Assembly: GCA_051362555.1 (NCBI GenBank)
Contig: CM120646.1
Coordinates: forward strand, 20,956,001-21,020,000
Direction of reading: 5' to 3'
Length of the DNA: 64,000 nucleotides
From: Lingula anatina
Taxonomy: Eukaryota > Animalia > Brachiopoda
The position numbers and the translations under genes were made by a program. Below, in pieces: positions 17,139 through 64,000 of the stretch. Under the pieces are notes generated by a model. The model made no database searches. It saw nothing but the letters and a program-made list of their open reading frames with translations, and had not been told where the DNA came from. The stretch's first letter is position 1, and every line of letters starts with the position of its first letter.

Positions 17139-19372
17139 CTGACACAATGGAATACCCCCTCTCCAGCAGAGCATGTGACATGGCATTAGCATTCTTCAGC
17201 ACCTGAAGCTGGTACTCCTTGAACTCAGGGCTCATAGCCTGCAGGAAACAAATACATCAATTAGACATGCTAGTGACAAAATATCTGGCCTGCAAAATTG
17301 TAACAAAAGTATTTAACTATGGTTTCTTTAATTTTCATGTTTGACTTGTGAATGCTTCAATAATTAAGACCAACTTTGCAAAAATATTCTGAAGTTTCAA
17401 ATTCTATTCAATTAATGGGTTGGTGGGTGGGGGGTGGAGGGTTACCTGTAGACTTACCTGTTTCAGAGCCACTGCAATACCCCCTATGTTGTTTTCATGG
17501 GGGCCTCCCTGAAGACTGGGAAACACAGCAAAGTTGATCCTGGACTCGTAATCATACATGATCTCCTTTCCAGTCTTTTTGTTCACTTCTTTCACTCCTC
17601 TGCGGAAGAACACCATACCTGCCCTTTGGTAAGAAGAAGTAGAGTAAGATGAGAGAGAAATAAAAAATGGGACCTTAAAGTACCTGTTAGTCTATTTTGC
17701 TACTCAATAATGTTGCTGTCATATCACACAGCTGCTAAAACAAGAACTTCAAACAAGTAATTCAAAACCATTCACTACCTAAATGATACTGGAAAAACAG
17801 TAACTGTAACAATGTTTGAGACACAGTTTGACCCGTTCTGACATATTTCACAAAAATATTATTTCTGATCTCAATATAGGGAAAATTGTAGCCATTAAGC
17901 TATATATTTATTTCCACTTTTTAATTTTAATAAAATCAGCATTTTGACCTCAATAAAAACTGTGCAATACTTTGCATTTCTTCTGAAAACCTCATATTCT
18001 GTTTTATACCTAGCTGTACTTTATTGTCATACATTCACCCTTCTTCTGTTTTAAATTTTTGCATTATTTCATCTAAATAATCACTAATTCAATTCCCAAA
18101 CATCCCACCTTGGTCCTCTCAGGGATTTGTGTGTTGTTGTCGTGACAACATCTGCATACTCAAATGGACTGGGAATCACTCCAGCTGCCACCAGCCCTGA
18201 GATGTGGGCCATATCAGCCAACAGAATAGCCTTGCTCTCGTCACAGATCTACAAGGAAAAATGTTTCTCTACATAATGAGTGAAAAACAAAACTAGGGAT
18301 TCATTTAGAATTTTTAACCATCCATTACAACTACGATACACAGTGTAACTTCTTTTCTTTAAGAAAAATACCTCGACTTTTAAAGCAATAATAACTCTTC
18401 CTTTGAGATTCAAAATTCCGCAAGAAATACATTGTAAACAACGCCTGAAAATATATTCTGTTGCATTTTCCCACTAAAACGACTGTTATTGTAGTAAAAC
18501 TAAAATATGTGCTTGTCATTTGGGCTTTCGATGCTTTCTTCGCGGTCGACAAGTGCATCCGTTGCTAATGACGTAATGGTGTCACGCGGATTCTCGCGTT
18601 CATTCGAGACCAAAATAACATGGCGGGAAACCCTCAGACGTAAGTTGCGAGTTTTTTACAGTGCGTCGGATAACGAAAAGCCCAGAATTGCACACATTGT
18701 AGATATAAATGCATTTTGAGCAAAAAAGACGAATATATCTTATGAATCTTATAATATTGTTATATAGTGTTGTTGTCTGCTTTTCCCGCGGTTTTAAGTA
18801 GGTCACTAGAAACTATCACTCGATACGAGAGGGCTCTGTCAGTTAAAATCTCTTAAGAGATTTTAACAAAAAACCGTACGTTTAGGAAAAAAAACCTGGA
18901 TTAACTTTGAATGCAGGAATGGGGTCGTTGACCATTGGTAAGTACGGGAAAATTGCCGTTTTTTCCAGGAAAATCGTATTTTTGGCCAAAACGAAGAGTT
19001 ATTATGACTTTAATTTATAACTTTTGAGATATTTCATTCTTTCATGTTAAAACTGAAAATCATTTCTTTCTCTGTTTAGCAAAAAAAAAAGAGTGTGTGA
19101 AAATGTTCATTGGACAATGACAGTCTTATACATATGCTCAATTGGGGAAGTGATTTCATGAATGTCATCATCAGAAATCAGTCTGTGAATACTGTACACT
19201 TCAGCGAGAACCTACCTCCCTAAACCTCTTGTAGTCCAGGAGTCTGGAATATGCACTGGTGCCAGCAATGATCAGACGTGGACGGAACAGTCTTGCAAGT
19301 TCAGCCAACTTGTCGTAGTCTATGTACCCAGTCTCAGGCTATTAAAGATAAATGTACAAAATTACATATACA

Positions 19373-37247: not shown

Positions 37248-44661
<7,414 letters not shown>

Positions 44662-45079
44662 GTAAATTGAGCGAAACCAGCTGGTTTTTCTCAGTCATGT
44701 TGTATTGAGAGCGCCATAAGAAAACATCTTGATAGAATATGCAAATCGTGTGCGCGATCGCTGTTCCATTTCGCGCCCCCTGTTGAAGTTATGCAAAAAA
44801 AATGATAGCAAATTGTGAATACCGTGCACGCAGCGGGAAAAGTTTCAATGAAAAATATAGCTAATATTCTACTTATTCACTGTGCCTTATGTTACATAGT
44901 TTTGATCAAAACATAGGCACCCAGCAATTATTATCCTGATCTCGATCCAAGTTTCGTGATCACATCACCTTGGCATTCACAATTTTATATGTCACCAAAA
45001 TAATACCCCATGATGCATCAGTTAGCGCGCCATCATCAAGAAAGCATCGTCAGCTGAGATAATTTTGTTTTTTATGCTA
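44662..45079. promoter_or_regulatory. Putative bidirectional promoter MEIOC/DNAJC9 with E2F-type sites and octamer
   Basis: Divergent ATGs with 418 bp between them. TTTCGCGC at 44769-44776, GCGGGAAA at 44833-44840, ATGCAAAT at 44739-44746. Confidence 0.6.
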
Positions 45080-47066
45080 ATGGGCTTGCTGGACGAGTGT
45101 CAGGAGCTTTTTGGCTCCTCCGATCTGTATGAGGTTCTTGGGTTGACAAAGGCATCGTCTGCAAGTGAAGGTATTCATATTATCAACGGAATCGTGGTTT
45201 ATGTGAAGGGGAAAGATTCCCAGGATTTACACATTTTTATCTTGAGACTTTAAGACTATTCCCAGATATTATCGTACTAACTTTTGGTCGAACTATCTCC
45301 AAGGGGATTCTCGCTTAATTGCAATTACTTTAAGCGGCTTAGATGTCTGTCACGCCTACTGAAGCTGATAGGGGGTAATTAACTATCGTTTAGCAGCTTT
45401 AGTAGGCGTCCCAGACATCTGAGCCACTTAAGCTGAAAGCAATTTAGCGAGATGGACCGATCCTGTTAGATCGACCCTGTTAGATCGATCGTGGGATAGA
45501 AACCCAGTCTTTGACTGGTTTCCATGCCTAGATAGATCCATCTGGATCGGTCTAATTCCCTGGGGTGTTTCACTAAATTGCTATCAACTAACCTGGTACA
45601 TACGAACCAAGCATTGGTGGAGCACGGATTCCCAGTAACACATGTAAACCACTTCTACTAGTTTCTTCTACGACTCTAATAAATTCGACATGCCAAGGGA
45701 TCAACTGAATAAATCATCTGATCTGCCATAAAAGAGCTTTAGAGTGCTCCTTTCTTTAAATTTTTGGTTGTCAATTTAACCTACTTTCCTGACCTACTTT
45801 TCTGCCCCATTGACAATCAGCATAAACTGCTAGCAGAAAAATCTGTTTAAACATCACTTTCGGGTAAAATTAAACAATGCCTTTTGGTAATTCTCTTAGT
45901 TATACTACTTGAAACTATATGCTGGCATTTGGTTGGTTTTTATGACAAAAAATTGACTTTGTATGTATCTTTAAATGTCTATCACACCTACCAAATCAGC
46001 TAGGAGGTAAAGATAATTACTAGTACCCCTTACAATTTTACAAGACGTAACAGACATTTAAACTGTTTAAAATGATAGCAATTTAGTGAGACCCCCCAGG
46101 GAGATAGATCGATCCAAATATCTGTTGGAATGGTCCCTTTGAGTAATCATTCAAATACAACTACGTACATTGTCTGCAGAGAGTCTATTTAACGCTGCTA
46201 TCTTAAAACATGACTAAATAACACTCAATAATGGTGTAACCTGAAATGGTTAGCTGCAACTTGCAATGCCTTATAACTTACCATGGTTTCCAATGCACCT
46301 TCCACCCTTAGCCTTGCCTTGTTATGCCGTACCCCCTCCCCTGCCTACCTAACACCATGGGTGAAAGTCTTCAGGATTATGCCAGATTTCAGGATATACA
46401 TTCAGTCTTCATGTTAATCATTTTTTTCATATGGATAATGGTGGAAGTGTTATGAGCAACTTTCACTTAATGTGGGTTACATGTCTTTGTTTTTGTCTTT
46501 TCTCTTACGTGGTGGTTTTGATAAATGTCTCTGCTATTCAGAGTAACTTTGGCAATGTTATTTACTCCCTCATTTCCACTAATCCCATTAAAAAAACTAT
46601 GGGAGTTAATTTCAGGAATGAACACCAAAAAAATCAGTAACAAAACTCATTTGAATAACAGAGACACTGTTTACTTTCAAGTCACTTCATAAGATGGGAA
46701 TGGGAACATACTGCCCAAGTACTCCAAATTCTAGTTTAATGCATGTAATAACATTAGACCTTTTATAATGTTTATGGTATATTTTCTGTATGCTTGCTAC
46801 AGAATGCACATAGCGAAAAGAAAATGTCCACACAGTCTTGTGGGCAGTCGAAGGTCTTTTTCTGTCGGATGTGCCAAATTTTATTAAAATTTTTGATATT
46901 TGTTTTGTTTTAGTGAAAAGAGGTTACCATAAATTGTCCCTTCAAGTTCATCCAGACAGAGTAAAACCCAGAGAAAAAACTGTAGCCACAAAGAAATTCC
47001 AAGCTCTTGGGAAGGTCTACTCCATTCTGTCTGACAAGGACAAGAGAGCTGTTTATGATGAAACAG
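45080..47066 (+). CDS. DNAJC9: DnaJ homolog subfamily C member 9 (J-domain histone H3-H4 co-chaperone), exons 1-2 only; remainder expected beyond window
   Basis: Exon 1 45080-45170 ([22 protein letters not shown]...SE). Exon 2 46914-47066 ([17 protein letters not shown]...[28 protein letters not shown]), with the HPD motif. Exon 3 not seen in the window. Confidence 0.9.
45303..45458. mobile_element. Palindromic (fold-back) MITE related to 45560-46099
   Basis: CTCGCTTAATTGC...TTAAGCGGCTTAGATGTCTG...ACGCCTACTGAAGCTG pairs with CAGCTTTAGTAGGCGT...CAGACATCTGAGCCACTTAA...GCAATTTAGCGAG. Termini resemble the neighbouring element's TIR. Confidence 0.65.
45560..46099. mobile_element. MITE, probably PIF/Harbinger-derived, in DNAJC9 intron 1
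   Basis: CTGGGGTGTTTCACTAAATTGCTATCA versus TGATAGCAATTTAGTGAGACCCCCCAG gives a 25/27 inverted match, including CWG flanks. Confidence 0.75.
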
Positions 47067-47356
47067 GTGAAATAAAGCTAAAACTTGAGTCCTTTATTAA
47101 GACAAAAGTGCTGCTGCAGTTGAATGTAATTGGTGGATAAGACCTCAAAGAAGAAAAAAGAAAAAAACTAACAGAGTCATGGTTTAATTCATTTTCTTAG
47201 TCCTAGGGACTTGGGGAAATTGGTTTTAAAAGCAGTCATAGGGAACAGGGCATTGTTTAGGCTTTGTGAAGAAGTACTAGTCATCCAAAATGGAGTAGTC
47301 TACAGGGGCGCCCATTTTTTTCTGGATTCTAACAGTTTGTCAAGATGTAATTATTG

Positions 47357-48934
47357 TACCACCAGCGTTAGCGCTGGCGGTACACATGGTTTCGGTCTCG
47401 TCCGGATCGTTCCGCCGGCTCCGCCGGCTCCGCCGGCTCCGCCGGCTCCGCCGGACGGCTACCGTTACCGCTTCTCCTCCTAGACGGTAAGGCCCCCCAT
47501 ACCCATCTCATGGATTTAGGTCACCTATAATCTCAACTCGTTCCACGTAAAATTTGGGCTTTGTCGGTATTGGGGTCTGGGTGTGGCACTCATTGCAATG
47601 CACCCTTGTCCAAAAATGGCAAAATTAAATGCTAATTATCTACCCTACGGAAGGAGTTACGGGAAAAATTTCTACAGACGGCTTTCCAAAAGTCATATGT
47701 GTAGATTTCAAATATACCCTCGGATTTGACCTTTGACCTTTACTTCAAGGTCAAATGGGCCAAAATTTTCAAAAAAATGAAATTTTTTACGAAAAAAAAA
47801 TTTTTTGCCCTGTTATTCAGACACCACACAGACTTAACCAATAATATTATTGGAAAGTGTTACCCTTCAGGTCATCTTTCATCTCCGTGAATTTGGGGTC
47901 AATCGGTGCATTTTCACAGGAGTAGCGGCCATAAGATAGTGAAACTGAAAACTGTCTCTAATTCGGGAACCGTTAATGCTAGAGACCCATTCTTTTTTGC
48001 ATTTTGTAGAGCATGTAAAGCCCAACACTGGAGGTGGTCTCGGTTTTTTTGTATTCCATACGGTTTTCGAGTTATGCTGTATCAAAAAGTACATATTGGT
48101 GGTGAAAGGAAAATGTACGGAAGCCCACTGGTGCCATATGTAGAAAAAAAAAATTATCTCGAAATTTCGAGATACTATTTTGAAATTTGAACAAAAAAAT
48201 TTACCACCAGCGTTAGCGCTGGCGGTACACATGGTTTCGGTCCCATCCGGTCCGTTCCGCCGGCTCCGCCGCCATGTTACCGTTACCGCTTCTCCTCCTA
48301 GACGGTAAGGGCCCCCGTACCCATCTCATGGATTTAGGTCACCTATAATCTCAACTCGTTCCACATAAAATTTGGGCTTTGTCGGTATTGGGGTCTGGGT
48401 GTGGCACTCATTGCAATGCACCCTTGTCTAAAAATGGCAAAATTAAATGCTAATTATCTACCCTACAGAAGGAGTTACGGGAAAAATTTCTATAGACGGC
48501 TTTCCAAAAGTCATATGTGTAGATTTCAAATATACCCTCGGATTTGACCTTTGACCTTTACTTCAAGGTCAAATGGGTCAAAATTTTCAAAAAAATGAAA
48601 TTTTTTACGAAAAAAAAATTTTTTGCCCTGTTATTCAGACGCCACACAGACTTAACCAATAATATTATTGGAAAGTGTTACCCTTCAGGTCATCTTTCAT
48701 CTCCTTGAATTTGGGGTCAATCGGTGCATTTTCACAGGAGTAGCGGCCATAAGATACCGAAACTGAAAACTGTCTCTAATTCGGGAACCGTTAATGCTAG
48801 AGACCCATTCTTTTTTGCATTTTGTAGAGCATGTAAAGCCCAACACTGGAGGTGGTCTCGGTTTTTTTGTATTCCATACGGTTTTCGAGTTACGCTGTAT
48901 CAAAAAGTACATATTGGTGGTAAAAGCAAAATGT
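47357..48934. repeat. Head-to-tail duplication of the ~750-bp Helentron-like terminal segment
   Basis: 47357-~48116 and 48202-~48934 are nearly identical. Each begins with the hairpin, and they differ mainly in the (CCGCCGGCT)n copy number. Confidence 0.92.
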
Positions 48935-49177
48935 GCAGTACGGTAATGGATAATAAATTTTGAACTCTGGAAAAATAAAACATTAGGCTTGGCAAAGCAG
49001 ACAACTTGTGTTCAAAAATGACATTATTTCATCAAATTTGAACTTCTGAAACTTCAGAGCACCTCCTATTTCAAGAATTTTGACCAAAATGACATTTTCT
49101 TTATTTTAATTAATTTTTTTTGTACGAAATTTAAGGCACATTATGGTAACTCCAAAATTATAACATTTAGTCCCTTA

Positions 49178-50507
49178 TATCTCCAAAACTGGCAGAGATA
49201 GGTCTATAGTTACTATTGAAGTTGAATAGGAAGTCATATACTGGCAATCTATATGTGACCTTAAAATTGACCTTTGACCTACTTTTCACCATGAACTGAA
49301 CTTTGCAAATTTTTCTTCCCTTTTATCTCCAAAACTGGCAGAGATAGGTCCGTAGTTACTATTGAACTTGAATAGGAAGTCATATACTGGCAATCTAAAT
49401 GTGACCTTAAAATTGACCTTTGACCTACTTTTCACCATGAACTGAACTTTGCAAATTTTGCTTCCCTTTTATCTCCAAAACTGGCAGAGATAGGTCCGTA
49501 GTTACTATTGGACTTGAATAGGAAGTCATATACTGGCAATCTAAATGTGACCTTCAAATTGACCTTTGACCTACTTTACACCATGAACTGAATTTTGCAA
49601 ATTTTGCTTTCCTTTTATTTCCAAAACTGGCTGAGATAGGTCGGTAGTTACTATTGGACTTGAATAGGAAGTCATATACTGGCAATCTATATGTGACCTT
49701 CAAATTGACCTTTGACCTACTTTTCACCATGAACTGAACATTGCAAATTTTTCTTCCCTTTTATCTCCTAAACTGGCAGAGATAGGTCCGTAGTTACTAT
49801 TGGACTTGAATAGGAAGTCATATACTGGCAATCTAAATGTGACCTTCAAATTGACCTTTGACCTACTTTTCACCATGAACTGAACTTTGCAAATTTTGCT
49901 TCCCTTTTATCTCCAAAACTGGCTGAGATAGGTCCGTAGTTACTATTAGACTTGAATAGGAAGTCATATACTGGCAATCTAAATGTGACCTTCAAATTGA
50001 CCTTTGACCTACTTTACACCATGAACTGAACTTTGCAAATTTTGCTTTCCTTTTATCTCCAAAACTGGCTGAGATAGGTCCGTAGTTACTATTGGACTTG
50101 AATAGGAAGTCATATACTGGCAATCTATATGTGACCTTGAAATTGACCTTTGACCTACTTTTCACCATGAACTGAACATTACAAATTTTTCTTCCCTTTT
50201 ATCTCCAAAACTGGCTGAGATAGGTCCGTAGTTACTATTGGACTTGAATAGGAAGTCATATACTGGCAATCTATATGTGACCTTGAAATTGACCTTTGAC
50301 CTACTTTTCACCATGAACTGAACATTACAAATTTTTCTTCCCTTTTATCTCCAAAACTGGCAGAGATAGGTCCGTAGTTACTATTGGACTTGAATAGGAA
50401 GTCATATACTGGCAATCTAAATGTGACCTTGAAATTGACCTTTGACCTACTTTACATCATGAACTGAACTTTGCAATTTTTTTCCATTTTATCTCTAAAA
50501 CTGGCAG
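49178..50507. repeat. Tandem satellite array, 146-bp unit, ~9 copies
   Basis: CTCCAAAACTGGC recurs, with minor variants, at 49181, 49327, 49473, 49619, 49765, 49911, 50057, 50203, 50349 and 50493. Each unit carries TGACCTTTGACCT. Confidence 0.97.
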
Positions 50508-50520
50508 AAAAAAAAGACAA

Positions 50521-50925
50521 CTTTCACATTGTTAGCGAAAGTTCATTCCCAATGTGAAAGAGATGAGGACGTGATTTTCATATTTGAGTCTTCGTTGGCC
50601 AAAGAGCAAGGAAGAACGTAATATTCGTATCCTCAGTGGGGGATCGTTGCAATCGTATATTCATTCAGTGGCTTTTGTTTGCGAAAGATCCTCAACTAGT
50701 GAGACAAATTAATTTTTCGCAATTTTCATATTTGAGTCTTCATTGGCCAAAGAGCAAGGGAGAACGTAATTTTCGTATCCTCGGTTGGGTATCGTTGCAA
50801 TCATATATTCATTCAATGGCTTTTGTTTGCGAAAGATCGTCAACTAGTGAGACAAATTAATTTTCACATTCAATCAAGTGAATTCGTGAAAGAACGTTAG
50901 CAGAAGATCGCTATCGATTGTTTTT
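50521..50925 (+). mobile_element. Small HINE/DINE-1-like non-autonomous Helentron with two 148-bp internal repeats
   Basis: Left CTTTCACATTG...CAATGTGAAAG inverted repeat. Internal direct repeat with period 148 (TTTGAGTC at 50583 and 50731). Right end GTGAAAG, then stem-loop GTTAGC..GCTATC, then TTGTTTTT. Confidence 0.55.
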
Positions 50926-52209
50926 AACCATCCTTCCCCACTGAAATTTATAATTAAAAATTTTTTTTTTCATTTCATTTTAACCCCCTCCCCCTTTTTG
51001 TGACCAGGTTGCCATTGTACCCCAATCCTAGAAAAAACTTTTGTTCTGGGTAAAATAATGTAATGGAACTTATTTAAGTCGTCAGAATGTATATAACTTA
51101 AACTGATGATATTATTACTAGTGAAAATGAAGCTATGATATTTGGCACATTTAACTTTATCTGGCCTTTATCTGTTTTCGTATGTTTAGGCCTATATTTA
51201 CTTGTACATGGGGATTTTGAAAATTTCTACTTACAATTTTAAAAGGTCTGGTACCTGTGTTTGGCAAAGATACACCTGCAGTTCATATTGAAATTGAATG
51301 AGATATATGTTAATGTGCCCTTAAGTTTACTTTTTACCGAAACTGCATTTTACAGATTTTCTGATTTCTTTGCCTTCAAACCTAGGAGATACACCACATC
51401 ATACTGTTTACAAGATGAAATTGTATGTCAGAATAAGGAAATTTTTGTAATAATAATTTTATTTTCAAAAACTACACTTTCAAGAATAATGTTTTGAATA
51501 AAAGTTATGAATCAATGAATCAAAATATCTATTACATGAAAGTACACATTAAAACATTAGTTTTATAATATTATAATACGAAGTTAACTATCTGCCTATG
51601 TATGCATATAAGTAATATACCTATCATACTATACAATATAACATCTATATTAATCAAAATTTACTAATCTATGCATACAAGTATAGTTTGTTATTAAATT
51701 ATACAATTAAAATTTTTTGTAAATCAGAAATATAAAATAATCTATTTATAAGCATACATAATTTAACAACAACAACAAAAAAAAGACAAAGACATTTTCC
51801 CACTAAAATTGATCTATAAAAAACAAAACAATTAATAATGATCAATATTTTTTTACTTAGTGGAAATTTTTAAACCACTGGAGTGAACCTTTTAATCAAA
51901 TTAGACATACCAAATATACTGCAAATATTCTCTTTATCATTATTATGAAGCTGTTAAAACATATTTATATACATGTATAATAAAATCAAATCACAACATA
52001 TGTCAATCAAAAATATGGTCATGATTATTTGATATCTACTAGTTATCATACAAATTGAAATATTTTTCAAACAATCTGTGTATATCTGTAATTTACATAT
52101 TGTTAAACAATCATGTATATTAGAAATAAAACCAAAACATGACTTAATCTACACTTTAAAAGATAAAAGCTTTGCCTAATATGTTATCAAATACATAAGG
52201 CCATTCACA

Positions 52210-52849
52210 TTTGAAGAAAATATTTACAAATAATTTACATTAACAATTTTTACATACATATAATGTTTTTCATTACTGTTTACACATTTTCATTTGCTAT
52301 GCATTGTGTATATAATGTGTTTTAAATACATTAGAGCATTAACATCTGAAGAATAGTAATTACAAATAATTTACATTTACAGTTTTTACATATATACAAT
52401 GTTTTCCATAACTGTTTACACATTTTCATTTGCTATGCATTGTGTATATAATGTGTTTTAAATACATTAGAGCATTAACATCTGAAGAATAGTAATTACA
52501 AATAATTTACATTTACAGTTTTTACATATATACAATGTTTTCCATAACTGTTTACACATTTTCATTTGCTATGCATTGTGTATATAATGTGTTTTAAATA
52601 CATTAGAGCATTACAATCTGAATAATAGTAATTACAAATAATTTACATGAACAGTTTTTACATATATACAATGTTTTCCATAACTGTTTACACATTTTCA
52701 TTTGCTATGCATTGTGTATATAATGTGTTTTAAATACATTAGAGCATTACAATCTGAATAATAGTAATTACAAATAATTTACATGAACAGTTTTTACATA
52801 TATACAATGTTTTTTATAACTGTATACACATTTTCATTTACTATGCATT
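52210..52849. repeat. Tandem array, 136-bp unit, ~4.6 copies, starting at the transposase stop codon
   Basis: TACAAATAATTTACAT recurs at 52225, 52361, 52497, 52633 and 52769. Confidence 0.95.
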
Positions 52850-55800
52850 CACGGGAATAATAGTATATACAGGATCATGGTCGCTGTAATATGTGCACAG
52901 TGTACCTGTTTCTATAGTGCTTACATTTTGTACATAAATGTGATCTAACAGGCTAGTATACCCTTTGACACCTCTAAATGTTGGAGAGGCAACCATTTGC
53001 TTATGGTATTGTAAGCTAGGAAGACAAACAGATGTTGTAGGAGCTTTTGACAAATCAATATTGAAATCACCTAACAAGATTGATGGTTTAATGGGCTGTT
53101 TGTTTTGGCTTAAAATTTCTTGTATTTTCCTATTAAAAGTTGGACCTACAATAGATGGTGAACGGTACATAAAGCATATGTAATAACCATTGATTTTTAT
53201 ACTTACACATTCAAAACCCGGCTCTGTAACAGAATTATTTTTGACCTCTGTTACTTTCAAGTAGTTACGAATATAAACAGCAACTCCACCTCTAGAGGTA
53301 TCATTTTGACGATCACATCTGATGAGCTGAAAACCAGGTATAGAGTATTTACCAGATGGGACATTGCTATTTAGCCAACTCTCAGTAATACCTACAATAT
53401 CTGCCACAGCCATTTCTGGATTACTTGTTAAGTCTTTGAAATGAGCTGGAAGAGATTGGATGTTGTGACATACAATTGTAAGTGTTTTTTGTAATGGTCT
53501 TAAAATAGGTAATGAATCTGGGTTGACAGGTCTCATACTCTTCATTGCATCATCTACTTTAGTGTCACAATACAAGTTTGCTTCATCATTTTGATCAAAA
53601 CTTAAAAGTTGAAGACCTGATAATTTAGTTGCACGACTTAGTGCAACATACCCAATACCAGGTGCAAACACATGTTTCAATGAAACAACAGCATCAGTGA
53701 CAGTTTTTCCTTGGGTTTTATGCACAGTGCAGGCCCATGCCAATTTTAGAGGGTATTGGTATCGAGCCACTTTCACTGATTGCTGATCAAAAAGTTCCAC
53801 ATGTGGCTTAATCTGTACACTGTTTGTGGGAATATTTTCAGGTCTTACTGTTTGTTGCCTGGTATTTGCCCCAATTTTGGGATTGTCAAAATGTACCCAG
53901 ATGTACTGTGGTTGATTAAGTGGTTTTGTACCATTTTCTATTTTTACGACAGTTCCCATAACACCATTTGAAAGGCCATCACTGACATTAAGATTTGTGG
54001 TTAGCATTACTCTTGCATTTACAGCAATTTCTATCAAGGGCTTTAAAGCTAAGGAATCTTTAGCAAAAGGGACCTTTTTCCTTTTTGTTTGTCCTGACCT
54101 TGTATGTATGATATCCGCTGCTTCTATTGTTATAATATCAGAGCAAAGAGATTGTAACATATGTCTGTTATGTTCATCAACTTCTTTGTTTCTAGGAAAA
54201 ATATACAATTTTGATGGATCTGCTATGAGTTGATCATTTACACATGTTAGAAGCATAGCTTTATCATGAGGTTGTAATGCTTGTTCCTTTTTCTTAGTTC
54301 TAATGGCATTTAGTAAATTTGCAAATGGTTTGTCATCCTTTTGTCTCATTATGATTGAAAGATTGTATGTAAAAAAATGATCCCATTCTGATTGATAAAG
54401 TTGTCCTGGGTCAGACACATAGAGGGCTTTATCTGCTACAGGTGCTACTTGATAAAAATCACCTACTGCCAAAACACTGATTTGTCCAAAAATAGATTCT
54501 GCAGAAGTGGTTTGTTTAATTTGGTTAAGTCGCTGGCTAATGTTTGTCATCATATTCTGGCCAACCATTGAAATTTCATCAATAATCAAAATTTGAAGAT
54601 TTCTGTATTTTACTCGAAGTTCTGTTAACAACTCTTCACCAAGTGGTACATATTTTTTTCTGTCTTTACCTTTTTGGCTTCGGATAGCAAAAGCAGAATG
54701 AATAGTTTGGCCCTGTATATTAAAAGCGGCTGTTCCAGTAAATGCCACTAACAGAACTTTTATGTCATCAGGCTCTTCATTGGGTGAGTTGCCATTTGAT
54801 GTCAGAATACGTTCTGCTTCAAATCTGAAAGCATTTATAACATGTGTTTTACCTGTGCCAGCTCCACCAGTTAGAAAAATGTGAAACGGTTTGGGATTTT
54901 TGCCTTGACTTTTATGAAGGCACCACTTACGCATATAATTAAAGATTTGTAGTTGTTGAATATTCATGGACTGAATCAATTTTTCTGCTTGTTTTAATGA
55001 AATTTGGGACTTTACTTTTTCAGTTAGTAAGTTTGTTTTTTGGTATGGATTTTTATCTGGTAATGTTTGGTCTAAATCTGGTAACTGTACTTCTTCAGTT
55101 ATATCATCACTTTCAATGGGCAACACTTGTTCCATTTTATCATCAATTCTCTGTTCCTCTGCTCCTGGAGCAATATCTGCCCAAGCATCTTCATGATCAT
55201 CATACGAATGCTGCAGAGCTGTATCAATTACCTCTGCATCTTTCTCAAAGGGGGCACTGTTAGTGTTAACTATCTCACAAATAGGGATATCATCATCATC
55301 ATTAAAGACAAAAGAAGCATTGTTATGAAAAGTTTCATATGATGTGAAAGTAGCAGGTAAAATATCTTGACCTCTATGGGGAAAAAACAGACGCAGTCTA
55401 TTTTCATAATATCTTTCTGGGTCACGGTCTATTGACCCTTTTAAATACCTAATCACAATTGGTCTACGCCGTACACTGATATACCCAAAGTTGTTTAATA
55501 AGGCAATGTCTTCTTTGCCCTCATTATCGCTATCATCATTGTCACTCCCTGAGTTTTCTTTGCTTTTTTTGCCCACTTTGGAACCATACATTCTGTAATT
55601 GGCAACAAAGTGAGCAAGAGACATATTCTCAAATTTTCTGTTATCTGGCCTATTCCAGTACCTCTCTAAATCTGACTTTGCCCATATTTGATCCAATCTC
55701 TTCTCTCTAGCTTGTTGTTTTAAAATGTTTAGCGGCAAAGACAACCTTGTTGCATCTTTATCTGCTGCTATCCAACGCACTTCTCTACTTGAAGACTTTA

Positions 55801-58800
55801 GTTTCATGCCTGTACATCTGTATATAGCTTCCATAACACTAATTTCTCTATGAGTAATATAGACTTTTCCTAGTGTTTTAAGCTCATTGACAGCTTCAGT
55901 ATTTCCTTCCCTAGCTTCCTTTTGAGCAGCCTTTAAAAGTTCACCCTCTTCACTTTCTTTCTTTGAAATGTAGGATACTATATAACAAATGCATGCATAG
56001 GCATCTACAATATATTGTATATCTATATTGGCATCCCACGCTTCTAATAAATGTGGATTATACTGATTAACCCAACATTCCTTCGGTTCCCGCTTTAAAA
56101 CTATGATGGTTTTTCTAGCTAGAATGCCCATTGAATATTCAAGCCCCTCCTGCGTCATGCCTGCTAACTCTAAACATTGTTGGGCTGTAAGAGATATATT
56201 TTTTTCATCACTAGTTACAGTTGCCAGTTTCTCTAATGCTTCCCTGGCTGCTTTTCGAATGATATGTTTTGGCTTCTCTTCATCTAACTTAATAGGCTTA
56301 CATACAAAAGTTCTAGTAGATACTGGTCTAGGAAAATTGAATCTACAAGTTTGGTTCCCTTTCCTGCAACTCCGAGAATGATTTTTGCTATGCATTTGCA
56401 ATTTAGATACTTTTTCAAATAATGCTTCTTCTTCATGTGGTAAGCTACAATTAACAAACTTGTCAATGAAATCTGTTACCTCTTTTTCCTCAGATCTATC
56501 AAGCACAGGTGCATCCTTAACCCAAAATAAAGCATGAATGTGTGGCCACCCCCTTTGCTGAAATTCTATCCTATAAAAAAAATCTATCACATTACCAATT
56601 GGATGTGAGGAAGACTTGATTATATCATTGATTAGATGATTTGTACGCTTATCAAACATGGCTGCAGCAATAACTGGATTACTATTAATAACCTTACAGT
56701 GTTCTGCCCAATCCATTTCATCAGGGACTGGTTTTCCTTGGGATTTCAGAATTGCATGAACAATTTCTTTCCAACGTCTATCTGCTGCAGAAAAACTGCA
56801 AAACCAAGTTGGGATACCCAACTGTTTTACCATAGCACACAAATCTTTCATAGTCCTCTCCCAATAAGGTGCAGACCCACGAACTTTTGCTAAAAACTTA
56901 TAACCTTCATTGTTTCTTAATATATTTTTCAATGATTCTTCTGATTCGAAACTATCTATACTGATGTTACCTGATTGTGCTGAACCTTTTCTCTGACTTA
57001 TTTTAGCAGAAGACAAAACTTCTTGAAATTCTTTAATGTACTGTAAATAAAATATATATTGCGTATTCATAGCAAATTTGGTGTTTGCAGAAAACAGTCT
57101 ACTTTTAATATATTGGCTAAATGTTAACTTGTGCTTCCGTTTTTCTGAAAAAGCATTTTTCCCATTTGGGAATAAAGTTGGAAAAGACTGCACTTCCTTA
57201 TTGAAGGTAGATTCAGGATGTTGATTTTCTGCAGGAGCAAAACATAATATTCTGTCTTCGTACTTATCTGATATGTACTGTGACAAATCTTCCGGTTGCA
57301 GGCATGTTACAAGTGGTGCGCTTGTTTCTGTAACTTCATCTTCAATATTATCTGGAAAAAAAATATATATATAAATAATCCTATTTATCAAAATATTAAA
57401 TGTAGGCGTTTGATAAATGGGGTAGTTGGTTTTCATGATCAGCATGGTCATTTCCATTAACATTAATTTCCTGTTTTTTTTTTCTTTGTAAATTTTTCCC
57501 ACAGATAAGCATTTAAATAGCTTTTGTATCCTATGGAAATAAATTACCTTCTAGTTTTTATTTGTTCAAGAAATAAAAATGCTAAAACTTTATTTAGTAT
57601 TCATGCTTACATTTTGATTGTTCCTTGCTTGTAGTTATTGGGTCTTCTTCCACATCAACATTGGTTTCCGCTAAAATGAATGAATTAATATATATATATA
57701 TATATATTACACATCTGTAAAATATTTTGATGGCAGTTAGGACAGAGAAAAGTGTTACTGAATCACATACATGTTTTCAGGGGCTTTTATATCCTATGAA
57801 AGGATATCACTTGCTTTTCCTCCAATTATTATACAAACTATATAATGAACAACCAAGAATGAAAACTATGCTCACTATTTCAGATCATTTCATACTCATG
57901 CTTACATCTTGATAGTTCTTTGCTTGTAGTTATTGCGTCTTCTTCTACATTAACATTGGTTTTCACTAAAATAAATATTTATAATGACTACAATTAAATC
58001 TTAATGTGATCATTTTTTGTTTACTTTAATTTTTCTTTTTTTTTCCTTCATAATTTTTTTCTCACAGATAAGCATTTGTAGTGGCTCTTGTATCCCATAG
58101 AAGTACATCACTTTTCAGTTTTCCATTATTCAACAAATAGCACAGTGCACATACTTCATTTAATATTCATGCTTACATTTTGATTGTTCCTTACTTGTAG
58201 TTATTGGGTCTTCCTCCACACTTACATTGATTTCCACTAAAATATATATACAGTAACATATTTAACTCCACACTACAGTAAAATCTTCCACAGCAATTAT
58301 TAATAATATAAAAACACAAAAACAAACATTAAAAATATTGTACTAACAACACAATGTCCATGCCTTCAGTTCACTTGTTCCATGCTTGAAATTTCAGTAT
58401 CATCTTTATTAGGTACCTCAAGTTCATTTACAATAAAAAAGTACATACCATTTTCATCTTTTCCGGAAGACTCTCCCTGATTTTCTTTTACGCTTGTTTC
58501 AAAAACTTCCTGATTTATACCTTCAACATCTGTCAAAAGAAACACCAAATAACGTTTATCATTTTGTATATTACTTCAAACAGTGTTTTTAGTTAGTTAG
58601 TTTTTATCATTACATCAAGTGCACAATTTTATTTATTTTACTAATTTACCTGTTATTTCAGTATCCTGATTTGTAAGATGCAACATAGTACTTTCTACTC
58701 TTCTTTCATCATAGGCAATAGCTGGAAATGATATACAAGTTCTTTTTGAACATATCTAAAAATTATCTCATTATTAATTCTAATTGTATTCATATAAAGG

Positions 58801-61441
58801 CATGATTGATCACCAAAAAAAAAACAAATTATTTTGTACATTATGTGACATTTTCAGAAAATACTTTTTTATTCAACTATGCTAACAACTATGCACAAAC
58901 ATGAAATTGCAGTTGAATTTCAAGACTAACAAAATTTTAAAGTAAAAATTATTCTAAGAGTAAAGAATTGTACACAGACAATTTTTAAAAATACCAAATA
59001 CATATCCACTTACCAGAAAAATCAGGATGGTTTTCCAAAAGAAAGTTAAAAGCTCTTTTCACTGTTTGTGGATTAATTTTCTGGTACAAGTGGTGCCCTT
59101 TGTATGCAAGTTTTCGCTTCAGTTTTACTCTAATTAGTCCACTTTCATGTGGCAAGGAAGGTAATCTCGTAATTGTTTCTTTGACGTTGGCTGGAACACA
59201 CACAATAGGACCATGCACTCCATGCTGCTGGCTTTTTGGCAGTGAAACAATTTTCATGAATGGTATCACTGGTGTTAGCAGTAGTTGTTCAATTGGATTT
59301 AAATCTCCTATATCTTGTGGCATGTCCATGGTTTTTATGCTATTCCCATCATAACTAATAGGTGATACCTTCTTCTGAACCATTTTCCGGTGACAGTAAG
59401 TGCAAATTATTTTTTGGGGTCCCATATCTAGAATTTTGCTGGAAATTAATGTCTCTTCTGTATAATTTTGCTCTTGAAATTTTTGTATTTGATTCTTAAA
59501 CCGAAGCCGATAACAACAACAGCAGACATACTCAGGAAGTTCCTTGCATTTTGCATGAAAATTTTCTATGGCAATTTTTATATGTGTTTGCTGTTCCTTT
59601 AGCTTTTGCATTTTAAGTCTTTGAGATTGTATACCAGATCTGGTCTTCCTCCATTGTTTGTCCCACTTCCTTCTGTGTTCTCTAATATGTTCTTGTGCAA
59701 GATATCTTTTTGCCTTTTCCCGTAGCTTTTCTTTTATTTCCCTCTGCAAAAGATATGATTTTCTTTTTAGCACTTTCCTTGTTCCCCCATCCCCCTTGGA
59801 AAGGTAAGCCTTCTCTCTTCTTTGTCTGGCAGTTTTGGTTTCTGATTCAGCACGCTTTTTAGAGTCACGTTCTTGGATTCGCTTTTTTACATCAGGCTTG
59901 CTACGGTGTTTTTGCTGCACCTCTTTTTTTCTTGTTCCCCCATTTCGCTTGGAAAGGTAAGCCTTCTCTCTTCTTTGTCTGGCAGCTTTGGTTTTCGGTT
60001 CAGCACGCCTTTCAGAATCCCGTTCTTGGATTTGCTTTTTTACATCAGGCTTGCTACGGTGTTTTTGCTGCACCTCTTTTTTTCTTGTTCCCCCATTTCG
60101 CTTGGAAAGGTAAGCCTTCTCTCTTCTTTGTCTGGCAGCTTTGGTTTTCGGTTCAACACGCCTTTCAGAATCCCGTTCTTGGATTTGCTTTTTTACATCA
60201 AGCCTGCTACGATGTTTTCTCTGCACTTCCTTTTTCCTTGTTCCCCCATTTCCTTTCGATAGGTAAGCCTTCTCTCTTCTTTGTCTGGCAGCTTTGATTT
60301 TCGGCTCAGCGCGTCTCTCAGAATCCCGTTCTTGGACATGCTTTTTTACATCAAGCTTGCTCCGATGTTTTTTCTGCACCTCCTTTTTCCTTGTCCCCCC
60401 ATTTCCCTTGGAAAGGTAAGTCTTCTCTCTTCTTTGTCTGGCAGCTTTGGTTTTCGATTCAACACGAGCTTTATAATCTCGTTCTGCAATTTTCTTCTTT
60501 ACATCAGGCTCGGAACGGACTGTTTTCTGTAACATCTTCTTCCTCAATTTTACATCTGCTCTGGTAAGATAGGTATCTTCTCTTCTTCTTCTGGCAGCTT
60601 TTCTTTCTGGTTCTGCACGACTTTTAGAATCTACTACCCTTTGTCTCTCTTTTCTTTGTTCTCTTTTCTGCATATCTTCTAAATGTCTCTGCTTTTCAAA
60701 GTATGACTGCAGTTCAAAAGGAAACAGATCAATAGCAGTACTAATAGTACAAGGCGTCACTTCGAAAGGACTACTCTCGCTGAGATTCAAGGAAACTGCC
60801 AATTCCCTCAAGTAATGTACTAAACTAGCTAATGTATTCAATTCTAAAACTATGGCTTTCCCATTTGGATCTCCAAGCCCATTTCGATTACGGCTATGCG
60901 AATCAAAGACAAAATACCTTCCATCATGCATTGAAAACACCATAGTTGCATAACTCAAGTGTTCAGAGCCCATAAGGAAGAAAAAATTCCCAGTTTGTGT
61001 ATATGCAATGTCTACAGCTTCTTCCAAAGTGTAAAATGGTAACTGTGTTTCTAATAAATTTAGAGATCCATTTAAAGATTCTTCAGTGTTAATAGTATAA
61101 GCAGTTTCATTATATTCAATTCTTGATGGCAATTCTTTAACAAGCAAAAATGTTTGGCTCCCTCTATTCCTCCGATAAATAACATCACCAGCGTAGAGAA
61201 TAGTGTCTATGTCACTTGCATCCCACTCTCTTACATTTTTAACCTCATTAAAGACAAGTGCCATTAATGCCATACAGGTGCATTGTGATCCAGCAGTACT
61301 ATCTAAGAATATGTCGCTGCCTTGATGGATCCTGCCTTGGACAACAGACATAATGGTATATCTTGACTGACGTAAATTTCTCATACTTTCCCTTTTCTTT
61401 GCCAACATTTGTGTTGTACTTTGCTTTCCCTTTCTTGGCAT
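52841..61441 (-). CDS. Helentron transposase: viral-tegument-like deubiquitinase + basic repeats + Zn finger + DUF6570-like + HUH Rep + Pif1-like SF1B helicase + AP endonuclease (2423 aa predicted)
   Basis: Exons 61441-59014, 58721-58650, 58529-58449, 58236-58177, 57965-57906, 57670-57611, 57351-52841. All introns are phase-1 GT-AG; total 7272 nt with no internal stop. Motifs: HQG...GSQCTCMAL and YFVFDSHSR (C76-like protease); CCCCYR...CTYCH; IPFMKI...HGPIVCVP...VKLKRKL; IEFQQRGWPHIH (HUH); YIVSYISK (two catalytic Tyr); GGAGTGKT, IIDEISMV, GDFYQ, QYPLKLAWACTVHKTQG, YVALSR (Pif1); HNIQSL, ITESWL, YRSP, GDFNID, LDHIY, SDH (EEP/APE). Confidence 0.9.
59780..60640 (-). repeat. Coding tandem repeat, 153-bp (51-aa) Lys/Arg-rich unit, ~5.5 copies
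   Basis: Unit KAARQRREKAYLSKRNGGTRKKEVQQKHRSKPDVKKQIQERDSERRAEPKT. AAGGTAAGCC recurs at 59801, 59954 and 60107. Confidence 0.95.
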
Positions 61442-61590
61442 TTTTTCTTTTTTGATCTTCCACAACTGAATAATAAAAAGTTGTCATTTAAAACTTACAA
61501 AATTTAAAACAAAATGATATTACAATACAAATGTACTAAATTTTCTGATCCATAAGTTCTTACATTCAACAGCAGCAAAGACACACCGAC

Positions 61591-63770
61591 ACATCACAAT
61601 CTTTACATTACACCAAATCTAAACCATTCTCATAAAAACAGTTGTTGTACATATTATGTACAAACTTCGAAATATAAATTTGATTACCCAATTCTCAGTA
61701 TGATAACACCTTTTTACAAAACTTCATGTTCACAAATAGAACTGTTTTTCCCTTCCATTTCAAACCTATCACATTCACAAACAAAGTATGCTACCCTAAT
61801 CGTCCCAGTAGTATCTGTCTCAGAAGAATAGGCAGATTTTCAGTCCAACAAAATCCATTCAGTCCAAAAAATGTTTCATTATTGCCAGTCCAAATGTCTG
61901 GTATAACATAAAAAAATAACTCCCAAGAAAACTGGACTCCACCAGTCAAAATTACATAATGAAAATCTGACCCCCCCCCCCCCCCCCCATGGAATTTTGA
62001 CTCCCTATCACAAACCTTTATAAATCTTATTTTATTTGAACAAATCATTTTTAAATGTAGTATGCATAACGGAGGAAATGTTGACACTTTTTGAAAATTT
62101 TCATAAAGATATAAACAAATTAAGAAACAAATTTTCTCACCAAATAACTCCTATGAAAAGGCTATGGGAGTCATAATGCTACAGGTAGTAAGATAAATTA
62201 TTCTTTCAAACATTATCAAAGTTCACCAAAAATGTCACCACCAAACTTTCAAATGTCAACGAAATATATATCTCACAATGCAAAACGTGTGAAAAACAAT
62301 GCCATACTGACTTCATATAAAATAGTTCCCTTTCTTCATGACAGTCCAAATCCAATGTCTATGAATGTAAAAATTTTCCATTGTTTTTCTTTCATTTTGT
62401 TTTTGCACCTAATATTTTACTACTAAACTATCAAATATTTCCAATATATTCTTTATAACATTTAGTAAAAGGACAAAAATTGAAATAATCACCACACAAA
62501 TATCAAATGAAAGCCTTTTTCATAGTAGAGCCATTGAATAATGAAAAACACATTTTTCATTTTCTTATTTTCACATTAAAATTTTTACCTGCACACTAAC
62601 AAAAAGAGCAAACATATCCTTCAATATGCATACTACAATATAAAAGTGATATATTCAAACAAAATAACAATTATTAAATTTTGTGGGAGAGACAAAATTT
62701 CATGGGGAGAAATCACATTTTATTATGAAAATTTTACTGAGAAGTCGCATTTTAAGGGAATCAGATTTTCATGCTTCACCAGCCATTCTAAAAAGTTTTC
62801 AACATATCTGTTATAATACAGAAGTAATAAATTTCTCAAACTCTTAAAGGAATAATAACTCTTCATTTTGACCAAAAAAATGAATTTTCCTTGAGTAAAC
62901 AACAATTTTCCCACACTTACTAATGGTTAATAAATCAATTTTTACATTCAAAGTTACTCCTTGTTTCTCTTAGAGAAAATCTTAACAGTACTGCTATCAA
63001 CGGAGGTCAACATGTCTAAAGACAAGTTCAGATATTATGCAAATAAGTATAATGGCCGTTTTTGTAGTAAAACAGACTACATTTTACTTCAATGAGTTCT
63101 TCACAATGTTTTCATTGTAAATAAAAGATTTCATACAAAGAGTTTTTATCCCTTTAACTCTTCCCTTCAATAGGATTTTACACACACTTACACATCACAA
63201 CTTTTACATCACACCAAAGCTAAGGCATTTCTCATACAAAACAGGTGTTGTACATATTATTTACCAACTTCAAATATAAATTTCATTGCATAATTTCCAG
63301 TATGGAAATATTTCTTTACAAAACTTCATCTTCACAAATAGAATGCCTATAACCATTGAAAATATTTTTCATATTTTTTTATAGTCAGAATTCCACAATT
63401 TTAAAATCCCATCCCTAATCAATGAGTTGTACATGATTTTTTTATTCTGAAATATAAATCTCATACAAAATGTTTTATCTCTTTAAGTCTTACCTTCAAT
63501 AACTGTTAACAAACAACTACACATAACAACCTTTCCATTACACCAAAGCAGAAAAAAATTGGATATAATATATACCAGCTTCATACTTAGAATTTCCAAA
63601 CTTAAAAATCCCATCCTTATTCATTAAAATACTACCTTTGTATCAAAAGCAATCAAAATATATTTCCTTCATTTGCTCACAATAATATAAATGGATAAAG
63701 TGAGCACATTTAATATAATTTAGTATACCAACACCTATTTACAAAACTTCCTTTCACAAATTAAATGCCT
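61591..63770. repeat. Dispersed degenerate ~150-bp repeats upstream of the Helentron gene
   Basis: ACATCACAA..TTTACAT.ACACCAAA.CTAA...GTTGTACATATTAT...TTTACAAAACTTCAT.TTCACAAATAGAA at 61591-61741 and 63192-63342, with partial copies near 63521 and 63721. Confidence 0.7.
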
Positions 63771-64000
63771 AAATTGAAAATATTTTTGAAATTTTATACT
63801 TAAAATTCCACTTCTTTATAATCTCATCTTTTGCATTTCCTATGATATTATAACAGACATGCTGAAACTCTTCATCCAATCACTCTGATTGAGAAATGTG
63901 TCTTGGCTGGTTAACAATTAAACTTGGTCAGTCCACAGAAATGACATTAATTTGAAGAATCGCCATTTTCAATTTACAGTCATCATTTTACATACTTCAC

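What the first reader, a model, noticed from the sequence alone, without database searches (positions are those of the whole stretch)
52841..61441. Intact, spliced 2423-aa Helentron transposase fusing a deubiquitinase, Rep, Pif1 helicase and AP endonuclease: candidate active element
Seen: the two long ORFs (826 and 1553 aa in the track) join through five small phase-1 exons into one stop-free 7272-nt frame. All expected catalytic motifs appear present: protease Cys and Asp-x-His, HUH, two Tyr, Walker A/B, and APE N/E/D/D/H. Internal repeats are highly homogeneous. Known: Helentrons combine Rep-Hel with an APE, and some carry cysteine proteases, but the roles of APE and protease in transposition are not established. 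Inference: a young, potentially mobile four-enzyme machine suited to reconstitution.
Basis: partly seen in the sequence, partly recalled or inferred. Interest (0 to 1): 0.8.

Follow-up and report, generated by a model that had tools for sequence, protein, structure and literature searches.

The report
Intact Helentron transposase with deubiquitinase domain
This is an unbroken copy of a known kind of rolling-circle jumping gene (a Helentron), likely from a Lingula-type brachiopod; its predicted spliced protein joins a likely ubiquitin-cutting protease, a DNA-nicking domain, a helicase and a second nuclease, a layout that is already published, and whether this copy still jumps is untested.

Summary
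The sequence observation holds. Seven minus-strand exons joined at GT-AG, all phase 1, give 7272 nt and 2423 aa with one terminal stop. Catalytic residues align with tested residues of a zebrafish Helentron deubiquitinase (8ADD) and of Helraiser; the C-terminal domain folds like LINE-1/AP endonucleases. Two Lingula anatina RefSeq models (97% and 88% over exon 7) carry the same fusion and matching linker peptides. The layout is not new: tegument-type deubiquitinase plus RepHel plus AP endonuclease is published (PMC9741609, PMC11417382), zebrafish domains of this type are proven deubiquitinases, and 29 of the 120 listed relatives keep all 15 catalytic residues checked. 'Young and active' is not shown: no junction rows among those displayed, little RNA, no termini found, and the repeat array is less homogeneous than a relative's. 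For it: purifying selection and near-identical stretches in a second DNA sample. The scan noted other Helitron-deubiquitinase fusions on other DNA, not this one. Verdict: new member of a known kind; a usable but not special substrate for the open question of what the extra enzymes do.

The parts
59014..61441 (-). Exon 1 (ATG at 61441; aa 1-810): VTD protease, basic repeats, Cys motifs, DUF6570
   Evidence: same N-terminus in P0001 and P0002
60746..61327 (-). Viral-tegument-like deubiquitinase (VTD, Pfam Herpes_teg_N), aa 39-232; C54, D180, H182
   Evidence: Pfam E 2.4e-7, above cut-off; 8ADD E 9.9e-15 with QC and D-S-H aligned; triad tested in PMC9741609
59774..60631 (-). In-frame 153-bp (51-aa) tandem repeats, about 37% Lys+Arg; likely nucleic-acid-binding or localisation spacer
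   Evidence: function inferred
59015..59530 (-). Cys-rich motif pair (aa 639-684) and DUF6570 (aa 696-809), a marker of HLE2
   Evidence: Pfam E 3.4e-13; motif; marker status from PMC11417382
58650..58721 (-). Exon 2, 72 nt, phase 1-1
   Evidence: near-identical peptide in P0001
58449..58529 (-). Exon 3, 81 nt, phase 1-1
   Evidence: homologous peptide in P0001 and P0002
58177..58236 (-). Exon 4, 60 nt, first of three duplicated exon-intron units coding an acidic linker
57906..57965 (-). Exon 5, 60 nt, second unit (49 and 52 of 60 alike to the others)
57611..57670 (-). Exon 6, 60 nt, third unit
   Evidence: same peptide end in P0001
52841..57351 (-). Exon 7, 4511 nt (aa 921-2423 and stop): Rep, linker, Pif1 helicase, AP-type endonuclease
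55775..57196 (-). Rep (HUH-Y2) nuclease; H1191/H1193 and Y1377/Y1381 align with Helraiser H593/H595 and Y727/Y731
   Evidence: Pfam Helitron_like_N E 3e-29; 7LCC E 5e-13 (the Tyr stretch alone is weak, 2.9 bits); residues tested in PMC4778049; both Tyr invariant in 120 of 120 relatives
53522..55015 (-). Pif1-type SF1B helicase
   Evidence: Pfam PIF1 E 1.7e-21; model pLDDT 88.6; Z 31, rmsd 3.2, 400 aligned to 7BIL, Z 27.9 to Helraiser
52844..53488 (-). AP-type (EEP-fold) endonuclease, aa about 2209-2423
   Evidence: Pfam Exo_endo_phos E 6.6e-10; family profile hits LINE-1 endonuclease E 1.9e-13 to 5.3e-13; Z 22.2, rmsd 2.5, 203 aligned to 2V0R
52177..52849 (.). 136-bp x 4.9 tandem array directly after the stop codon; absent from at least one related copy
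   Evidence: joint 52149>52841 in one X5 contig, 29 letters on the short side
61466..61563 (-). Candidate 5' UTR intron (GT-AG), unverified
   Evidence: sequence only

Best explanation
This is a frame-intact transposase gene of an HLE2 (Helentron-type) rolling-circle transposon, likely from a Lingula-type brachiopod, likely spliced into one 2423-aa protein that is predicted to copy the element by nicking and unwinding its ends. Mechanism, step by step: (1) shown here: domain order VTD - basic repeats - Cys motifs/DUF6570 - acidic mini-exon linker - Rep - helicase - endonuclease, with catalytic residues in place; (2) inferred from Helraiser (PMC4778049): HUH and two Tyr nick and join single-stranded ends and the helicase peels the strand, probably through a circle as suggested for fungal HLE2 (PMC5148889, abstract); (3) inferred from zebrafish Helentron VTDs (PMC9741609): the N-terminal domain is a deubiquitinase and probably protects the transposase or its partners from proteasomal removal; (4) my inference, untested anywhere I found: the LINE-like endonuclease nicks T-rich target DNA to open the insertion site, as an accessory rather than essential step. 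The copy belongs to a multi-copy family under purifying selection; I put the chance that this particular copy can still move at about 0.3.
For: Splice model and motifs; Pfam; solved-structure matches; confident model of helicase plus endonuclease, pTM 0.87. Lingula anatina RefSeq proteins of 2441 and 2511 aa cover both long ORFs in one chain and have linker peptides matching the small exons; isoforms of one differ by exactly one 20-aa unit. Relatives such as P0008 (2159 aa on a 7351-base contig) hold all four domains with almost no room for introns. 29 of 120 listed relatives keep all 15 catalytic residues. DNA runs show a family: X2 records 83/78/98/96 of 355 and X5 80/169/190/145 of 584 in the 99+/95-99/90-95/under-90 bands, with frameshifted copies among them. 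25 of 39 displayed coding differences are synonymous against 21% expected. X2 has three listed pieces of 409-491 bases with 0 differences, two of them across introns.
Against: No row at any of the six junctions among 15 joints shown (73 hidden) or the 13 listed. RNA depth on the coding bins from 52924 to 57011 is at most 0.64 in X11, X12 and X14, while the neighbouring DnaJ exon has 42-48 reads in X11 and X12; reads in X17 and X18 are mostly under 90% alike (168 of 285, 190 of 366), so they come from other copies. No subterminal inverted repeats or strong 3' hairpin were found in 50500-52200 against 61460-64000. The Rep motif has Trp where the 2014 Helentron signature has Ser. The 5' side holds decayed small insertions. 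HLE2 elements without the endonuclease also insert at TT (PMC11417382), which weakens step 4.
Confidence: 0.85

Rival explanations
1. The gene is intact but this copy is immobile: silenced, or lacking an end. It is a recent leftover of a family whose drivers are other copies. (A rival on activity only; compatible with the identity above.)
For: Near-zero RNA in 3 of 5 RNA runs laid and almost no reads at 99% or more on the ORF in the other two (0 of 285, 4 of 366); no termini found; left flank 50490-51260 is a patchwork of other multi-copy repeats; repeat array has drifted more than in P0001.
Against: No stop or frameshift in 7272 nt; zero-difference pieces in sample X2; only about 6-26 in 100 of each RNA run was read and tissues are unknown; the 5' end probably lies beyond base 64000.
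Confidence: 0.55
2. The small exons are partly or wholly skipped, or the two long ORFs are expressed apart, so the real protein is not the 2423-aa form.
For: Direct exon 1 to exon 7 joining is in frame; RefSeq isoforms of relatives differ within this linker by 6 and 20 aa; related DNA copies gain or lose whole units (joints 57496>58110 in X2; 57868>58155 and 58113>57826 in X5); no junction reads seen.
Against: All five small exons have canonical sites and matching peptides in two RefSeq models; exon 7 starts in an acidic stretch after a strong acceptor; 54 of 120 relatives in which both anchors were found have an acidic linker of 42-192 aa at this place. Skipping would change linker length, not the four domains.
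Confidence: 0.25
3. A domesticated host gene: a Helentron transposase kept for a cellular role (for example a germline deubiquitinase) and no longer a transposon.
For: Introns, purifying selection, no termini found; domesticated VTD genes exist (PMC9741609).
Against: Many copies over a wide identity range including frameshifted ones; at least three loci in L. anatina at 97, 88 and 85%; low expression; likely position inside an intron of a DnaJ gene among other mobile elements; selection between lineages is expected for transposases.
Confidence: 0.05
4. The C-terminal domain does not nick the target but resolves the protein-DNA link or repairs ends (TDP2-like or true AP-endonuclease role).
For: The fold also matches AP endonucleases (Z 21-22) and TDP2 (Z 18.1-18.9); TT insertion does not need the domain.
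Against: By sequence profile LINE-1 endonuclease (E about 1e-13) is far closer than APE2 or plant APE (E 0.03-0.04) and TDP2 is not listed; a retrotransposon origin is the published view (PMC8788227).
Confidence: 0.2

Closest known systems
VTD-bearing Helentrons of zebrafish, DrT1 and DrT2 (Erven et al. 2022, PMC9741609; PDB 8ADD)
   Same: [quoted passage not shown] The Glu377 equivalent is kept (E103).
   Different: One VTD and no OTU domain here (DrT1 has two VTDs, DrT2 a VTD plus OTU); the Asp376 equivalent is Lys102; brachiopods are not named in the passages seen or in 3 supplement files searched.
HLE2 subgroup b of the HELIANO classification (Li et al. 2024, PMC11417382)
   Same: [quoted passage not shown]
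   Different: Placement by tree not run; terminal inverted repeats and TT site not found; Lingula not in the main text or the one supplement file held.
Lingula anatina LOC106168004 and LOC106153597 (RefSeq, 'uncharacterized')
   Same: Same start, domain order, 51-aa repeat and acidic linker; Rep 569/580 and helicase 484/500 identical to P0001.
   Different: VTD region 232/260, repeats 249/340, mini-exon linker 71/111; each copy has homogenised its own repeat consensus.
Helraiser (bat HLE1, reconstituted; PMC4778049, PDB 7LCC)
   Same: HUH, two Tyr, Pif1 helicase with aligned catalytic residues.
   Different: Helraiser is 1496 aa, has TC/CTAG ends and a GLPH Rep motif, and its described domains include no protease or AP endonuclease.

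Membership tests
Helentron / HLE2 subgroup b | AP-type endonuclease fused C-terminal to RepHel in the same ORF | tested here: met
   Single exon 7 encodes Rep, helicase and EEP domain; definition in PMC4067079
Helentron / HLE2 subgroup b | HUH motif and two catalytic Tyr in Rep; Pif1 helicase motifs | tested here: met
Helentron / HLE2 subgroup b | DUF6570 upstream of Rep (HLE2 marker) and Herpes_teg_N (enriched in subgroup b) | tested here: met
Helentron / HLE2 subgroup b | Rep signature 1: F/Y-x-R before motif 2 | tested here: met
   FYR at aa 1179; signature from PMC4067079
Helentron (2014 shortcut signature, not the family definition) | Rep signature 2: Ser between Gly and Pro (Helitrons have Leu) | tested here: not met
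   Trp here; of 118 of 120 relatives with the motif, 67 have SP, 49 WP, none LP. The authors call the signature sufficient 'in our sample'.
Helentron / HLE2 subgroup b | Subterminal inverted repeats, 3' stem-loop, insertion between T and T | tested here: inconclusive
   No convincing pair between 50500-52200 and 61460-64000; no genome held; the 5' end probably lies outside the window
Helentron / HLE2 subgroup b | Phylogenetic placement of RepHel in the HLE2 clade | not tested
   No tree was built
Autonomous, currently active element | Transcript, circles, new or polymorphic insertions | tested here: inconclusive
   Low RNA depth, no junction rows shown, mixed DNA evidence
VTD deubiquitinases (PF04843) | Catalytic Cys with Asp-x-His | tested here: met
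   C54, D180, H182 align with 8ADD; invariant in the 34-37 of 120 relatives aligned there
VTD deubiquitinases (PF04843) | Cleavage of ubiquitin or NEDD8 substrates | not testable with these tools
   Needs purified protein
Canonical Helitron (HLE1) | GLPH Rep motif, no AP endonuclease | tested here: not met
   GWPH and a C-terminal EEP domain

The most novel reading that the evidence does not exclude
This copy is a naturally intact, still mobile Helentron driver, the first of the endonuclease-bearing class that could be rebuilt without any repair; in it a LINE-like endonuclease docked on the helicase opens the target, the deubiquitinase shields the transposase, and an expanding and contracting array of 60-nt exons tunes the acidic linker in front of Rep by splicing.
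Probability: 0.2. Interest if true: 0.65.

Novelty: new member of a known kind. Interest (0 to 1): 0.3.

Why it matters
The roles of the endonuclease and protease carried by Helentrons are open (PMC8788227 says undetermined as of 2021; four searches, listed reconstitutions only for Helraiser and for wheat Feng8, whose paper does not mention Helentrons or HLE2). An intact natural copy is what such an experiment needs. But 29 of the 120 listed relatives are as intact at the residues checked, some from fish with better resources, and this copy's ends are not known, so the locus adds a candidate rather than an answer.

Tried and rejected
No whole genome is held, so copy number, flanks and the 5' end could not be read. 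No RNA holder was listed by the run index; this is not evidence either way. The first read lay was swamped by neighbouring high-copy repeats. A single-sequence fold of the endonuclease failed (pLDDT 35.7) and a single-sequence search of it found no solved relative; the family profile and the alignment-based model did. The protein atlas gave no answer for the DUF6570 region, so its fold is untested. I considered the hairpins at 47357-47385 and 50520-50560 as the element's 3' end and set them aside: the first starts a separate high-copy element on the plus strand (loose ends at 47351/47353), the second fits a self-contained 148-bp-repeat element that is multi-copy in DNA. A weak hairpin at 51859-51879 has no partner. 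The RNA joint 55509>55828 is not GT-AG in any register and sits on a 4-base microhomology. Repeat homogeneity as a clock was rejected. No earlier scan note on this place or sequence. Search for Lingula with Helitron listed 8 papers, none on this element by title.

Full report
Observation. Two long minus-strand frames lie at 52844-57550 and 58988-61483. Scanning donors and acceptors between them gives five small exons of 72, 81, 60, 60 and 60 nt. Because every small exon is a multiple of three, exon 1 joined directly to exon 7 is also open, so the frame alone does not prove the small exons.

Domains. Pfam finds Herpes_teg_N and DUF6570 in exon 1 and Helitron_like_N, PIF1 and Exo_endo_phos in exon 7, all above their cut-offs. 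The N-terminal domain matches the zebrafish Helentron deubiquitinase 8ADD at E 9.9e-15 with the Gln-Cys and Asp-Ser-His motifs aligned; those residues are the tested triad (PMC9741609, section read). Of the two acidic ubiquitin-contact residues named there, Glu377 is kept and Asp376 is Lys here (read from the alignment). Rep matches Helraiser at E 5e-13; H1191/H1193 align with H593/H595 and, in a weak second stretch, Y1377/Y1381 with Y727/Y731, residues shown to be needed for transposition (PMC4778049, passages). A 41-sequence alignment (41 of the 120 listed hits plus query were cut to this size for the fold) gave a model of helicase plus endonuclease with pLDDT 88.6 and pTM 0.87; it matches Pif1 helicases (Z 31, rmsd 3.2, 400 aligned) and LINE-1 and AP endonucleases (Z 22.2, rmsd 2.5-2.7, about 205 aligned), with TDP2 at Z 18-19. 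The family profile prefers LINE-1 endonuclease (E about 1e-13) over cellular APE (E 0.03-0.04). The high pTM hints that the endonuclease packs on the helicase; this is a model only.

Relatives. A search with exon 7 gave 476 proteins at E 1e-50 or better among 7986 candidates scored; 120 were listed. The top three are Lingula anatina RefSeq proteins at 97, 88 and 85%, so the window is probably a Lingula-type brachiopod. P0001 (2441 aa) and P0002 (2511 aa) also cover all of exon 1, start with the same Met, and contain peptides homologous to each small exon. Their RefSeq isoforms differ only inside this linker, by 6 aa and by one 20-aa unit. That such isoforms usually rest on transcript evidence is my recollection, not a call result. 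Relatives from fish, molluscs, amphioxus and metagenomes carry the same domain labels, some on contigs barely longer than the coding sequence (P0008). 29 of 120 keep all 15 catalytic residues checked; in the Rep motif 67 of 118 have GSP, 49 GWP like this copy, none GLP.

What is in print. [quoted passage not shown] PMC4067079 (passages) gives the Helentron definition, termini and Rep signatures. PMC8788227 (passages) states that the endonuclease's function was undetermined. PMC5148889 (abstract and outline) reports joined ends for a fungal HLE2. PMC13286980 (passages) reconstitutes a wheat Helitron and does not mention Helentrons. Searches listed no reconstituted endonuclease-bearing element; the library lacks most subscription journals, and figures in supplements could not be seen. 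Neither of the two main papers names Lingula in what was searched.

Expression. Five RNA runs labelled as the same species were laid, 6-26 in 100 of each read. In X11, X12 and X14 depth on the bins from 52924 to 57011 is 0-0.64, while the DnaJ exon at 46914-47068 has 42 and 48 reads in X11 and X12 and none in X14. X17 and X18 cover both long exons at about 1-10x and the small-exon region at 0-0.5x, but 168 of 285 and 190 of 366 reads are under 90% alike and only 0 and 4 reach 99%: the family is weakly transcribed from other copies or a diverged population. No displayed joint falls on a predicted intron (15 shown of 88; 13); at this depth and divergence that is uninformative rather than negative.

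Age and mobility. DNA contigs show a multi-copy family from under 90 to 100% alike. X2 has three listed pieces with 0 differences, two across introns, and coding pieces at 13 of 891 and 11 of 790; this fits recent copies or simply a shared allele. The 8 listed X5 pieces differ by 2-12% and its intron depth is 4-8 against 40-165 on exons, but 80 of its 584 records are 99% or more alike at places not shown (946 pieces hidden). One-base indels at 52881, 57152 and 55465-55482 mark broken copies. Of 40 differences displayed (of 1254), one is non-coding and was dropped; 25 of the other 39 are synonymous against 21% expected (P 6e-9; 2e-4 against 35%), a non-random sample that still points to purifying selection between lineages. 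The 51-aa repeats match at 40-46 of 51 within this copy, 49-51 within P0001, and 35-40 between them: arrays are homogenised lineage by lineage, so homogeneity does not date the insertion, and this copy is the less uniform one. Termini were not found; the left flank is a patchwork of other repeats and the right side runs through decayed small elements and diverged units to the window edge.

Context. A plus-strand DnaJ-domain gene has exons at about 45080 and 46914-47068; no further exon was found by motif scan to base 64000, so the element probably lies antisense in a long intron, next to a very abundant non-autonomous element at 47353-50508.

A small new detail. The acidic linker between DUF6570 and Rep is built from duplicated exon-intron units; related copies gain or lose whole units in DNA and RefSeq isoforms differ by one unit. 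An acidic linker of 42-192 aa is present in the 54 of 120 relatives where both anchors were found. I did not search the literature for this feature specifically.

Verdict. A real, intact-coding member of a described class (HLE2 subgroup b type, VTD-bearing Helentron), with membership met on protein features, one shortcut signature not met, and termini untested. Interest 0.3.

Noticed in passing
window 45080-47068, + strand: DnaJ-domain host gene (Pfam DnaJ E 6e-14); resembles DNAJC9 (label recalled, not from a call). Its next exon was not found before base 64000, so the intron would exceed 16.9 kb.
   Followed up: partly
window 47353-50508, + strand: Very abundant non-autonomous Helentron-like element: T-rich start, GC-rich hairpin, 9-bp microsatellite, an 845-bp tandem duplication (93% alike) and 146-bp x 9.2 array; RNA depth in the hundreds to over 1000, mostly sense to the plus strand in stranded runs. 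No link to the coding element was found.
   Followed up: partly
window 50519-50925: Second small element with 148-bp x 2 repeats, hairpins at both ends, multi-copy in DNA but nearly absent from RNA.
   Followed up: partly
window 62844-63157: TTAA-flanked inverted-repeat element, high copy, diverged from its family; related to 2353-2693 and 18379-19013.
   Followed up: partly
window 61745-61988 and 63961-64000: In other copies these two stretches are contiguous through about 28 letters and are transcribed on the minus strand (joint 64000>61745); here they lie 2 kb apart in reverse order.
   Followed up: no
window 60700 and 53619: RNA reads in X17 (3) and X18 (5) join 60700 back to 53619, a rearranged or tandem copy, or a circle-like junction away from the expected ends.
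   Followed up: no
window 55510-55827: In-frame 318-base skip in 3 reads of X17 and 1 of X18, removing about aa 1430-1535 after the catalytic Tyr; non-canonical ends on a 4-base microhomology.
   Followed up: partly
window 37251-37724 and 39218-41754, - strand: MEIOC-domain exon (Pfam E 2e-9) and two further long open frames without Pfam match, probably one meiosis gene head to head with the DnaJ gene.
   Followed up: no
window 43245-46119: Nested long inverted repeats (74, 62, 47 nt arms) around the first DnaJ exon, probably old foldback elements.
   Followed up: no
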